This document shows positions 18,358 through 61,671 of a stretch of DNA of 64,000 nt, piece by piece. Source of the DNA: Eledone cirrhosa (taxonomy: Eukaryota). The notes beneath the pieces are model-generated. The model was not told where the DNA came from. It was given only the letters and a program-made list of their open reading frames with translations, and made no database searches. The position numbers and the translations under genes are program-made. Each line of letters opens with the position of its first letter. The stretch's first letter is position 1. The DNA is taken from assembly GCA_964016885.1 (NCBI GenBank), contig OZ024743.1:15748001-15812000 (forward strand). The letters run 5' to 3'.

Positions 18358-19113
18358 TTTTTCTGTACCATCATAGTGTTTTTTGAGTATTGTATAATTT
18401 ATTTTTCCTCATTTACTCTGTAACCCAGTATGAATCGATTTGTATATATTGTTTATTGTAAATGTTAGTACATTGTTAACATATTATCATTATATTATTA
18501 TTGTGACATCTATATTGTTTGTGTAAATTAACCGGGGATTATCTATTATATTATATTGAATTATATAATTTTATTGTTTATTATTTATTATATGTGTCTC
18601 TTGTAATTATATCATATTATTGCCTCATGTATATTGGGTAGATGTATTGGTATTATTTTCACTCTTATCATGCTTATTTTTATATTCAAACTTCTAATAA
18701 GGCTTAATTTGTGTAGTTGAACATAGATGTGCGTATTGTTGTATATGTGTGTGTGTGTGTGTGTGCGCGCGCACCTATATACATGTATATATTGTACTTT
18801 TTGATTTTTAATTGTAATTTTAATGTTGGTAAAGGTATATTAGTATAATGTATTATGTTATATTACATTGTGTTATATATAATTCCTGCTCTATATAACC
18901 ACATTTGTTTAGCTTTAGGTTAGTTGCTTTGGACTATATTTGTAATATGGTTCTTAATGTTATATACATCCTTAGTTATTCTTATTATATATTTTTATTA
19001 TTTTTATTTTTATTTTTATTATATTTTTTTGCAAGACTTTAGTGTATGTACACTCCATATTCTTCGGAGCTTCCGGCTTGTATCTGCCGATATTACTTCT
19101 TGTTGTTTTGATT

Positions 19114-19151
19114 GCCCTGATGAGTCCTTAATAGGACGAAACATTGTCGGC
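19114..19151 (+). ncRNA. Canonical minimal type I hammerhead ribozyme
   Basis: GCC-CUGAUGA-GUCCU-UAAU-AGGAC-GAAA-C-AUU-GUC-GGC, followed by AAUAAA. Confidence 0.9.
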
Positions 19152-19343
19152 TAATAAAAACTTTTGATGTATTAAAGGATTGTTTGTTTTACTCTCTTAA
19201 TTTTTTGGCTCTGTTTAACTGTTTACTGTCATTTCTATAATACGAAGAGGGTGTTTAACTCCAACACGCTCCGGTATTTTAATCCTTATATATATATATA
19301 TACATAATTATATACAAAGATATTATATGTTTATTATCATTGA

Positions 19344-34350: not shown

Positions 34351-35277
34351 TATTAATTATACTATTTATGGTTATGCAAATACAAAAACCTTTTGTAGTT
34401 ATATATATTTTTATAAACCCTAAATAGTGGTAGGCAGTAATATATTACTACCTTATTACCAGTAAGTTAAATAGCTCAATGTAATAACATCAGATGATTT
34501 ACAGAGCAGTTATATGAATTAGAAGAATCAAAGGACTGTTCAAAACATGTTTATGCTTACAACTGTTTCCTCCAAACCGAGGTTTGGTTTCTTCGGAGCA
34601 ACTTATTATTGAATGAACACTTATATGACCTCCTTTTCACCCAAGAGACATACAGATACATATGCAAATATTGTGGGTCAACATTCATTACAGCATTTAG
34701 TGTGGCAGTACACATTTAGAGATTACATTCATATTAAAAGATACAATCAAAAATACAGGTTAAAATACAACATAAAATTAAGCGGTTATAGAGTGCAATT
34801 GTTATATGTGTGGCAAGCACGTGCATCTTGTTTATATAGTGTGGCAGAGAGTTACGTGTAATAGAAGCACTTAAGCAGGTAATCAAGTGTGTTAAGAGGG
34901 TTGATTACCTGCTTAAGGTCTTCTATTACACGAAACTCTCTGCCACACTATATAAACAAGACGCACGTGCTTGCCACACATATAACATTTGCACTATATA
35001 ACCGCTTATTTTCATGTTGTATTTTAACCTGTATTTTTTATTGTATCTTTTAATATGAATGTAATCCCTAAATGTGTACTGCCACAATAAATGGTGTAAT
35101 GAATGTTGACCCATAATATTTGCATATGTATCTGTATGTCTCTTGGGTGAAAAGGAGGTCATATAAGTGTTCATTCAATAATAAATTGCTCCGAAGAAAC
35201 CAAACCTCGGTTTGGAGGAAACAGTTGTAAGCATAAAAATGTTTTGAACAGTTCTTTGATTCTTATAATTCATATAA
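34351..35277. mobile_element. Fold-back of a PLE 3' UTR with two CCGAAGA HHRs (34555-34599 minus, 35188-35232 plus)
   Basis: Arms about 34510-34885 and 34902-35277; same sequence as the 3' UTR at 48802-49342. Confidence 0.88.
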
Positions 35278-36959: not shown

Positions 36960-37074
36960 TAGGAACGAGTAGGATCCCGACGGCTGAGCTCAAGCCGTTT
37001 CGACGGCTAATTCTGGACCAGAATTAGCCGTCGAAACGGCTTGAGCTCAGCCGTCGAGGTCCTACTCGTTCCTA
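36960..37074. repeat. Near-perfect palindrome made from the 3' half of the 61.6-kb family HHR
   Basis: Arms of about 57 bp centred on 37017. Confidence 0.9.
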
Positions 37075-48463: not shown

Positions 48464-49493
<1,030 letters not shown>

Positions 49494-54681: not shown

Positions 54682-54787
54682 AAATAAAAGATTAAAGTTT
54701 AAGCAAAGAATCGCTGCTTTCACCCTTAACGGGATCTCGTTAAGGGTGAAAGCAGCGATTCTTTGCTTAAACTTTAATCTTTTATTT
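54682..54787. repeat. Perfect hairpin with 50-bp arms, derived from the 56.7-kb HHR family
   Basis: Arms 54682-54731 and 54738-54787. Confidence 0.9.
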
Positions 54788-57829: not shown

Positions 57830-59333
57830 TTTAAACAATTAAGTTAAAGTGTACATCTACATATGTATACGGAAGTATTAGTATGCATATAAATACACAT
57901 ATGTATACATATGTACATGTTCCGAGCTTTTCACTAGACACTTTGCAGTGAGTGTCTAGCTAGTCTGTATGTAAACACACAGACGAACCGGGTTTTAAAG
58001 TCATACGGGTTTTCAAGGAAACACACTTCCTCTATTCCCCAGAGAGCCAGACAGGAATATTGGACTAGTTTCGATGTTATTACATCTCATCAGCAATATA
58101 TACCTATCTTCTGGCTTCTCCGGAGAATTGTCAAAGCACATATCGTTATATGCTTTTTCTATGAAAATCAGTAGTGGGCAGACTAATTTGCATAGAACGT
58201 GAGTCATTGTACGCGCCGGTTCAGCGGAAACGATAAAAACAAATAACGAAACGAAATTAAATTTCGTTTCGCTTCTAACTCACTTTTGTATGACTGACGC
58301 TTAAACAATTAAGTTAAAGTGTACATCTACATATGTATACGGAAGTATTAGTATGCATATAAATACACATATGTATACATATGTACATGTACCGAGCTTT
58401 TCACTAGACACTTTGCAGTGAGTGTCTAGCTAGTCTGTATGTAAACACACAGACGAACCGGGTTTTATAGAAAAAGAATATAACGATATGTGCTTTTACA
58501 ATTCTCCGGAGAAGCCAGAAGATAGGTATATATTGCTGATGAGATGTAATAACATCGAAACTAGTCCAATATTCCTGTCTGGCTCTCTGGAGAATAGAGG
58601 AAGTGTGTTTCCTTGAAAACCCGTATGACTTTAAAACCCGGTTCGTCTGTGTGTTTACATACAGACTAGCTAGACACTCACTGCAAAGTGTCTAGTGAAA
58701 AGCTCGGTACATGTACATATGTATAAATATGTGTATTTATATGCATACTAATACTTCCGTATACATATGTAGATGTACACTTTAACTTAATTGTTTAAGC
58801 GTCAGTCATACAAAAGTGAGTTAGAAGCGAAACGAAATTTAATTTCGTTTCGTTATTTGTTTTTATCGTTTCCGCTGAACCGGCGCGTACAATGACTCAC
58901 GTTCTATGCAAATTAGTCTGCCCACTACTGATTTTCATAGAAAAAGCATATAACGATATGTGCTTTGACAATTCTCCGGAGAAGCCAGAAGATAGGTATA
59001 TATTGCTGATGAGATGTAATAACATCGAAACTAGTCCAATATTCCTGTCTGGCTCTCTGGAGAATAGAGGAAGTGTGTTTCCTTGAAAACCCGTATGACT
59101 TTAAAACCCGGTTCGTCTGTGTGTTTACATACAGACTAGCTAGACACTCACTGCAAAGTGTCTAGTGAAAAGCTCGGTACATGTACATATGTATAAATAT
59201 GTGTATTTATATGCATACTAATACTTCCGTATACATATGTAGATGTACACTTTAACTTAATTGTTTAAGCGTCAGTCATACAAAAGTGAGTTAGAAGCGA
59301 AACGAAATTTAATTTCGTTTCGTTATTTGTTTT
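57830..59333. mobile_element. Non-coding 470-nt HHR monomer, arranged in tandem and inverted
   Basis: Period 470 (57831/58301 and 58481/58951); orientation flips at about 58468. Confidence 0.92.
58530..58572 (+). ncRNA. Canonical minimal hammerhead (copies at 59000-59042 plus and 58057-58099 minus)
   Basis: AUAUUG-CUGAUGA-GAUGU-AAUA-ACAUC-GAAA-CUAG-UC-CAAUAU. Confidence 0.92.
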
Positions 59334-59713: not shown

Positions 59714-59781
59714 ATATTTATATTTATATATATATATTAATTCTGGCAATATTACACAAATATGACCCTCCCCAAGTATAG

Positions 59782-59877
<96 letters not shown>

Positions 59878-59880
59878 GTA

Positions 59881-60607
59881 TGTATATATAATGTATTTTG
59901 CAATACACTTTATGCTAAATTAAAAGCATTTTGAAGACCGTAAGCTATTGTTTTTTAGAGTAGTGACAAATTCACTTACTTTGATCTCAGCAAACAGGAG
60001 AGATAAGCCGACAAGGCCTTGTTTCGCTTTTGTTGAAGCTTATCAAGGCTAACTACTCCCACCTGTCTACCGAGATCACTGATGTTATATTCTTATAGAA
60101 TTCTAGTAAATAATCAGGAGCTGATTATGCAGAGCGGTTGTTGGTCAGGCAGAAATTAAAAATTAGAATTGGAGCTCTGAGATAGCAATATATATATGGA
60201 TGTATATATAATGTATTTTGCAATACACTTTATGCTTAATTAAAAGCATTTTGAAGACCGTAAGCTATTGTTTTTTAGAGTAGTGACAAATTCACTTACT
60301 TTTTCTGCCTGACCAACAACCGCTCTGCATAATCAGCTCCTGATTATTTACTAGAATTCTATAAGAATATAACATCAGTGATCTCGGTAGACAGGTGGGA
60401 GTAGTTAGCCTTGATAAGCTTCAACAAAGCGAAACAAGGCCTTGTCGGCTTATCTCTCATGTTTGCTGAGATCAAAGTAAGTGAATTTGTCACTACTCTA
60501 AAAAACAATAGCTTACGGTCTTCAAAATGCTTTTAATTAAGCATAAAGTGTATTGCAAAATACATTATATATACATCCATATATATATTGCTATCTCAGA
60601 GCTTCAA

Positions 60608-60612
<5 letters not shown>
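59881..60612. mobile_element. Non-coding 320-nt HHR monomer, arranged in tandem and inverted
   Basis: Period 320 (59881/60201); orientation flips at about 60302. Confidence 0.9.
60407..60450 (+). ncRNA. Hammerhead ribozyme, U3-A8 core (mirror copy at 60006-60050, minus strand)
   Basis: AGCC-UUGAUAA-GCUU-CAACA-AAGC-GAAA-CAAGGCCUUG-UC-GGCU. Confidence 0.85.
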
Positions 60613-60659
<47 letters not shown>

Positions 60660-61563: not shown

Positions 61564-61575
61564 GGAACGAATAGG

Positions 61576-61671
61576 ACCCCGACGGCTGAGCTCAAGCCGT
61601 TTCGACGGCTAATTCTGGACTAAATGAACATTTTTATCCTGGTATTTGAATAGCCGAGCTTCTCAAGGGGT
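61576..61671 (-). ncRNA. Hammerhead ribozyme, U3-A8 core
   Basis: ACCCC-UUGAGAA-GCUCGGCUA...UAGCCGUC-GAAA-CGGCUUGAGCUCAGCCG-UC-GGGGU. Confidence 0.8.

What the first reader, a model, noticed from the sequence alone, without database searches (positions are those of the whole stretch)
59881..60612. 320-nt monomer family with a U3-A8 hammerhead, tandem and inverted
A third independent family, with about 1.3 units in one direction and about 1 unit in the other. It also has a TA-rich segment inside the unit, next to the left insert boundary. Its size is in the range of small circular ribozyme RNAs.
Basis: partly seen in the sequence, partly recalled or inferred. Interest (0 to 1): 0.8.

Follow-up and report, generated by a model that had tools for sequence, protein, structure and literature searches.

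The report
Hammerhead retrozyme with Penelope insertion footprint
This is one copy of a protein-free 320-base repeat that carries a predicted self-cutting RNA motif and sits as two back-to-back arms in a TA microsatellite; it is a new member of a known class (retrozymes), likely pasted in by the enzyme of Penelope-like jumping genes.

Summary
Observation confirmed. Window 59868-60302 holds 1.36 units on the minus strand and 60303-60614 holds 0.98 unit on the plus strand. The unit is 320 nt, has no ORF, and carries a type I hammerhead with a U3-A8 core. The genome has 616 exact core-motif matches. Of 62 position-picked loci, 44 have an inverted arm, always divergent. Arm 3' ends fall at two fixed sites 26-33 nt apart, mostly at (TA)n; 32 of 32 classifiable two-arm loci use one of each. 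Inversion, tail and TA bias are the published Penelope-like (PLE) signature, so this is most likely a non-autonomous PLE-mobilised retrozyme. Sister subfamilies covary at C3-G8/U3-A8 and in helices I-III, which supports a selected ribozyme. U3-A8 cores, palindromic helix III and the retrozyme-PLE link are all in print. This scan noted the same architecture before on other DNA. Extras here: two composite insertions with Neptune-type PLE 3' ends that keep the one-of-each rule, and a post-hoc pile-up of 5' truncations just after the cleavage site that did not replicate. Cleavage and circles are untested. No homologous parent PLE was found.

The parts
59868..60302 (-). Left arm, 435 nt = 1.36 units (m28 to m142); its 3' end is the short (S) end and merges with (TA)n
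60303..60614 (+). Right arm, 0.98 unit (m175/176 round to m168); its 3' end is the tail (T) end at (TA)n; 1-nt overlap at the arm junction
60407..60450 (+). Type I hammerhead: helix I AGCC/GGCU, core UUGAUAA at 60411-60417 (U3-A8), helix II GCUU/AAGC, helix III; predicted cut between 60446 and 60447
   Evidence: sequence; covariation
60006..60050 (-). Second copy of the hammerhead (core 60046-60040); predicted cut between 60010 and 60009
60434..60445 (+). 12-nt palindrome forming helix III and loop 3 (second copy at 60011-60022)
60589..60614 (+). 26-nt tail (m143-168) between the S and T ends, present as a terminus only on this arm
60188..60212 (-). Internal TA-rich segment of the unit (m118-142); the same segment forms the left boundary at 59868-59892
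59787..59867 (.). (TA)n, left part of the target site
60615..60655 (.). (TA)n, right part of the target site

Best explanation
The locus is one copy of an ORF-less 320-nt hammerhead repeat with two divergent arms in (TA)n, likely a non-LTR retrozyme inserted in trans by the RT/GIY-YIG protein of a Neptune-type Penelope-like element. Shown: the architecture, copy number, fixed ends, TA flanks, covariation, and the presence of coding PLEs in the genome. Inferred mechanism: tandem copies are transcribed, and the hammerhead cuts some multimers into monomers that may be ligated to circles. The PLE protein, probably a dimer, nicks both strands of a (TA)n tract. Each nick primes reverse transcription internally on multimeric or circular RNA, one at the S site (about m142) and the other at the T site (m168, 173 or 175, each ending in AT or TA). 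The two cDNAs stop at variable points and are joined through 0-5 nt microhomology or short fold-backs. The result is two divergent 5'-truncated arms with the tail on one side only.
For: Of 62 loci (all those behind the first 100 of 616 motif hits), 44 have inverted arms, all divergent and none convergent. 92 of 105 outer 3' ends are S or T. Of 42 complete two-arm loci, 32 are S+T, 0 are S+S or T+T, and 10 have one end elsewhere. TA follows 40 of 45 T ends and 35 of 47 S ends, but only 3 of 13 other ends. The same rule holds in the 470-nt family (21 S+T of 24 loci, 3 with another end), subfamily B (8 of 8) and subfamily C (11 S+T, 1 S+S, 8 other, of 20 junctions). These features match the PLE description in PMC8557442 (passages) and the two internal RT start sites in PMC11167929 (parts 1-2 of 4). 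The genome holds RT+GIY-YIG ORFs (938 aa) with the CxxxxCxxC linker and TA-flanked S/T-type ends. Two composites join a 320-family arm head-to-head with a PLE 3' end at 90-95% identity: L079 (T arm plus PLE S-type end) and L088 (S arm plus PLE T end). Hammerhead pairs: 94.4% of cells paired, 7 pairs with double changes, against 21-50% for slid controls. 112 of 132 arms run through the cleavage site, so templates were longer than a cut linear monomer allows.
Against: No PLE with a pLTR homologous to the unit among about 50 endonuclease loci examined, of 150 listed and 10,596 candidates. The tail (26-33 nt as delimited) is slightly shorter than the 30-40 nt in print, while the coding PLEs examined here have tails of about 60 nt. 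Target-site duplications cannot be read in (TA)n. The composites are only 2 of 93 loci, could be nested or rearranged insertions, and a third chimera (L118) involves a different PLE family. Most arms cross the cleavage site, which is equally compatible with little or no cleavage in vivo. Nearest-neighbour folding puts the active monomer fold 8 kcal/mol above an alternative fold.
Confidence: 0.85

Rival explanations
1. The repeat is a PLE-mobilised passenger whose templates are linear read-through multimers. The U3-A8 hammerhead cleaves poorly or only with protein help, and no circular RNA takes part.
For: 112 of 132 arms cross the cut site (the count is inflated by how loci were picked). PMC11167929 found hammerhead cleavage dispensable for insertion in vitro and protein-assisted. 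Eight of nine Xenopus retrozyme dimers did not cleave (10.64898/2026.07.22.740005). The alternative fold is predicted at P 0.81-0.99.
Against: Covariation across subfamilies keeps the core and all three helices. Invertebrate retrozymes give abundant circles (PMC7229834, passages). This rival shares the insertion mechanism and differs only in the RNA form.
Confidence: 0.35
2. The arms are truncated pLTR pieces of an autonomous PLE that was not found, and the tandem units arise locally by DNA-level duplication.
For: Truncated PLE ends litter these TA tracts. A satellite array over 26 kb shows DNA-level amplification of this unit.
Against: In 93 loci the arms continue upstream into the circular permutation of the unit, not into a shared 3' UTR or ORF. 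Both arms carry partial tandems in exact 320-nt register.
Confidence: 0.07
3. Insertion by LINE-1-like twin priming, or integration of an infectious viroid-like RNA.
For: Divergent arms with short microhomology resemble twin priming (recalled). The size and a stable circular fold (z -5.3 against 60 shuffles) resemble viroid-like RNAs.
Against: There is no polyA end, both ends are fixed and TA-targeted, and a hammerhead occurs in one polarity only.
Confidence: 0.04

Closest known systems
Animal non-LTR retrozymes (Cervera and de la Pena 2020, PMC7229834, passages read; Li, Clavereau and Pollet 2026, 10.64898/2026.07.22.740005, parts 1-3 of 5 read)
   Same: Tandem 150-450-bp units with a type I hammerhead, low GC, no ORF, dispersed copies plus some large arrays; proposed to depend on PLEs.
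   Different: U3-A8 core and a 4-bp helix III inside a 12-nt palindrome. In the text I read, those papers link retrozymes to PLEs by co-occurrence and pLTR homology; they do not describe inverted arms, tails or TA targeting for retrozymes ('inverted' and 'microsatellite' occur 0 times in PMC7229834). Circles and cleavage are shown there and untested here.
EN+ Penelope-like elements, Neptune/Naiad-type microsatellite targeting (PMC8557442, passages; PMC11167929, parts 1-2 of 4)
   Same: Partial tandems, an inverted 5'-truncated copy, a tail at one end only, (TA)n bias, two internal RT start sites downstream of a hammerhead; non-autonomous multicopy derivatives (MRC1) are described.
   Different: No RT/EN ORF, no homologous parent found, tail of 26-33 nt. 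[quoted passage not shown]
U3-A8 hammerhead variants (Perreault 2011, PMC3088659; Cervera 2014, PMC4209133; passages read)
   Same: Natural C3-G8 to U3-A8 covariation, reported active in vitro and seen in about 1,300 Schistosoma PLE motifs; palindromic helix III up to 10 bp in repeat-type hammerheads.
   Different: Here the switch is seen between homologous retrozyme subfamilies of one genome (A and B are U3-A8; C and D are C3-G8).

Membership tests
non-LTR retrozyme | Tandem unit of 150-450 bp | tested here: met
   320-nt period
non-LTR retrozyme | Type I hammerhead in each unit | tested here: met
   163 of 178 motifs have TTGATAA, 11 were unparsed; covariation
non-LTR retrozyme | Low GC, non-coding | tested here: met
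   GC 34.7%; longest ATG ORF 28 aa
non-LTR retrozyme | Many dispersed copies | tested here: met
   616 exact motif hits; 1678 candidates, 40 scored
non-LTR retrozyme | No PBS or PPT | not tested
   No LTR structure is seen in the maps, but PBS and PPT were not searched for
non-LTR retrozyme | Self-cleavage | not testable with these tools
   Needs an in vitro assay
non-LTR retrozyme | Expressed as linear and circular monomer RNA | not testable with these tools
   No run on record as RNA was available to lay
non-LTR retrozyme | Target-site duplication | tested here: inconclusive
   Flanks are (TA)n
Penelope-like element | RT + GIY-YIG ORF | tested here: not met
   No ORF: not an autonomous PLE
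Penelope-like element | Inverted 5'-truncated copy | tested here: met
   44 of 62 loci, all divergent
Penelope-like element | Tail at one end only | tested here: met
   32 S+T, 0 same-end, 10 other of 42; length 26-33 nt
Penelope-like element | Microsatellite target bias | tested here: met
   TA after 75 of 92 S/T ends
Penelope-like element | Homology to the pLTR of an autonomous family | tested here: inconclusive
   None in about 50 of 150 listed endonuclease loci or in 10 further subfamily-B loci
viroid-like RNA | Ribozymes in both polarities | tested here: not met
   The descriptor finds one polarity per unit

The most novel reading that the evidence does not exclude
The PLE enzyme works as an asymmetric dimer that must prime one target strand at the short site and the other at the tail site, even when the two RNAs are different (retrozyme plus PLE). 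ORF-less hammerhead circles exploit this. In this family the U3 change co-evolved with a long palindromic helix III to form a built-in switch: the monomer is silenced by pairing of the core with helix III, and only dimers cut.
Probability: 0.25. Interest if true: 0.6.

Novelty: new member of a known kind. Interest (0 to 1): 0.36.

Why it matters
How animal retrozymes spread, and how PLEs make tandem/inverted, tailed insertions, are open mechanistic questions. This family gives a short, young, high-copy natural substrate with two mapped priming sites and candidate partner proteins in the same genome, so an in vitro test is straightforward. The four subfamilies also give a natural series for comparing C3-G8 with U3-A8 cores and monomer with dimer cleavage. 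The class, the core variant and the PLE link are already published, and this scan saw the footprint in other families, so surprise is modest.

Tried and rejected
(1) Expression: no RNA holder listed. Four runs of unknown kind were laid as contigs; they show only that related sequence exists in four coded organisms. (2) The idea that arms stop after whole turns of a circle (5' ends at m137-176): not significant in the position-picked set (17 against 30, p 0.16; 9 of 70, p 0.16) and only nominal when pooled with score-picked loci (p about 0.015). Rejected as evidence for a circular template. (3) Pile-up of 5' ends at m12-15: 7 of 70 arms, p 9e-5 for a window chosen after seeing the data (about 0.007 after correcting for 80 windows); m1-20 gives 10 of 70, p 0.03. 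It did not replicate in the 470-nt family (3 of 50), subfamily B (2 of 16) or subfamily C (2 of 40), so it is kept only as a hint. (4) The conformational switch from folding energies: the alternative helix is 6, 7 and 4 bp in A, B and C. But canonical-core controls also lie 6.7 and 8.1 kcal/mol above their best folds, the best dimer (-74.6) is also an inactive one against -73.9 for the double hammerhead, and the satellite variant breaks the helix. Not established. (5) Parent PLE search: negative. The coding PLE with a U3-A8 hammerhead (L222) shares no other similarity with the unit. (6) Rfam gave no match at the gathering score. (7) Paper searches listed no paper describing per-insertion S+T exclusivity in retrozymes; the library is incomplete and preprint supplements were not read. 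PMC9977147 (passages) added only that autonomous and non-autonomous Chlamys pairs are active.

Full report
Observation. The window is G000:C4:15748001-15812000 in a 3.0-Gb genome rich in (TA)n. The finding is an element at 59868-60614 between two TA runs. The left arm (59868-60302) is 1.36 copies of a 320-nt unit, with the hammerhead sense on the minus strand. The right arm (60303-60614) is one unit less about 6 nt, on the plus strand. The arms are about 99% identical, their 5' ends meet at 60302/60303, and their 3' ends face outward. Each holds a type I hammerhead with core UUGAUAA (U3, A8), 4-bp proximal helices I and II, and a 4-bp helix III whose stem plus loop is a 12-nt palindrome. A long distal helix I is predicted. 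The unit is 34.7% GC and its longest ATG ORF is 28 aa; the circular fold has z -5.3 against 60 shuffles.

Family. A DNA search gave 1678 candidates, of which 40 were scored. A core pattern with N at positions 3, 7 and 8 gave 616 exact hits and 0 for the control; 99 of the first 100 listed are U3-A8. I took all 62 loci behind those 100 hits as a position-picked set, plus 31 score-picked loci. In the 62, 43 are minus-then-plus, 1 is a double of that, 18 are single-arm, and none is convergent. Of 105 outer 3' ends, 47 are at m138-143 (S), 45 at m166-177 (T) and 13 elsewhere. Of 42 complete two-arm loci, 32 are S+T, none is S+S or T+T, and 10 have one end elsewhere. In the score-picked set 17 are S+T, 1 is T+T and 4 are other. 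T ends come as m168, m173 or m175, all ending in AT or TA. Arm junctions mostly show 0-5 nt overlaps, some with short templated insertions or fold-backs. One locus opens into a satellite array of at least 82 units of 316 and 304 nt.

Replication. The unrelated 470-nt family next door (57831-59332; 1500 motif hits) has S ends at m226-232 and T ends at m295-300, with 21 S+T of 24 complete loci. Three homologous sister subfamilies were found. B is about 82% identical to A, U3-A8, with 1383 motif hits. C is about 75% identical, C3-G8. D has a 310-nt unit, is about 67% identical, C3-G8. B gives 8 of 8 S+T. C gives 11 S+T, 1 S+S and 8 other of 20 junctions.

Ribozyme. In a 15-sequence alignment of A, B and C, 94.4% of cells pair and 7 of 15 pairs change on both sides, including N3-N8, helix I.1, three helix II pairs, the fourth helix III pair and one loop-3 pair; slid controls pair 21-50%. 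These are a handful of evolutionary events in three subfamilies, not 15 independent ones. Helix III palindromes of 12, 12, 10, 8 and 6 nt occur in the subfamilies, which fits double-hammerhead pairing, although fold-back correction of quasi-palindromes could also produce them. Within A, 88 of 140 motifs keep the perfect palindrome. Folding predicts an inactive alternative in which the core pairs with the 5' half of helix III, but controls show such gaps are usual and the array variant lacks it. U3-A8 covariation is known in nature and reported active in vitro (PMC3088659; PMC4209133; passages only).

Mobiliser. The genome has many GIY-YIG matches (150 scored of 10,596 candidates). Those examined fall into six clusters. 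One ORF of 938 aa has RT and GIY-YIG matches (the RT match is just under the Pfam cut-off). The four coding families whose C-termini were read carry a CxxxxCxxC linker, which PMC8557442 links to Neptune microsatellite bias. Two of these families show two fixed TA-flanked ends about 60 nt apart. No pLTR homologous to the 320-nt unit was found. After a lead from an earlier scan note, I examined the 5' flanks of 27 single-arm loci and the outward flanks of 31 selected loci. L079 joins a T arm to 330 nt at 95% identity to the L218 PLE 3' end, which stops at its S-type end. L088 joins an S arm through a fold-back to 333 nt at 90% identity to the L232 PLE 3' end, which stops at its T end. L218 and L232 lie in one endonuclease cluster. 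L118 is a same-strand chimera with a different PLE family. This is suggestive only.

Mechanism. Shown: architecture, end rule, TA flanks, covariation, and coexistence with coding PLEs. Inferred: both strands of a TA tract are nicked and each primes internal reverse transcription, one at S and one at T, as the two start sites and two-strand extension of the Anolis Poseidon protein suggest (PMC11167929); the truncated cDNAs are then joined head to head. Because 112 of 132 arms cross the cleavage site, templates were circles or uncut multimers, and the data cannot tell which. A peak of 5' ends at m12-15 hints that helix I or cleavage sometimes stops the RT, but it was found post hoc and did not replicate.

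Comparison and verdict. The element meets every sequence-level retrozyme criterion tested and the PLE insertion criteria, and fails the PLE ORF criterion, as a non-autonomous element should. The retrozyme-PLE link is proposed in 10.64898/2026.07.22.740005 (parts 1-3 of 5; supplements not seen) and non-autonomous PLEs are described in PMC8557442. Earlier notes of this scan report the same footprint in other families; none matched this sequence. It is a new member of a known kind, with useful mechanistic detail. Interest 0.36.

Noticed in passing
window 57831-59332: 470-nt retrozyme family with a canonical C3-G8 hammerhead, divergent arms and a tail of about 70 nt (S m226-232, T m295-300); 1500 motif hits.
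   Followed up: yes
window 59739-59786: Short 3'-end remnant of a PLE (95% to L228, 93% to L218); the 320-nt element sits in the TA run that follows it.
   Followed up: partly
L222:2958 and 7937 (-), L223:6097 (+): Coding Neptune-type PLE family (938-aa ORF) whose pLTR hammerhead also has a U3-A8 core; no other similarity to the 320-nt unit. A TA-bounded piece matching L222 lies at about window 48780-49400.
   Followed up: partly
L102-L104 (G000:C2:207686300-207713000 and beyond): Satellite array of at least 82 units of 316 and 304 nt that starts with an inverted T arm; its helix III variant keeps 4 bp with a non-palindromic 3-nt loop.
   Followed up: partly
tally: Motif hits are strand-skewed (396 forward, 220 reverse), which suggests another large array not among the 100 listed.
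   Followed up: no
window 34811-34976, 36966-37068, 54691-54778: Near-perfect long hairpins; one arm of the second recurs at about 61565-61620. Possibly short head-to-head ends of other TA-targeting repeats.
   Followed up: no
window 35843 (-) and 36013 (+); 19111-19155 (+): Further hammerhead motifs, the first two in divergent arrangement; a motif with the same core and helix II lies near a PLE in L225.
   Followed up: no
L062, L115, L127, L268: Short fold-backs or repeats of the first 13 nt after the cleavage site or of the helix III palindrome at junctions, suggesting template switching around the hammerhead.
   Followed up: partly
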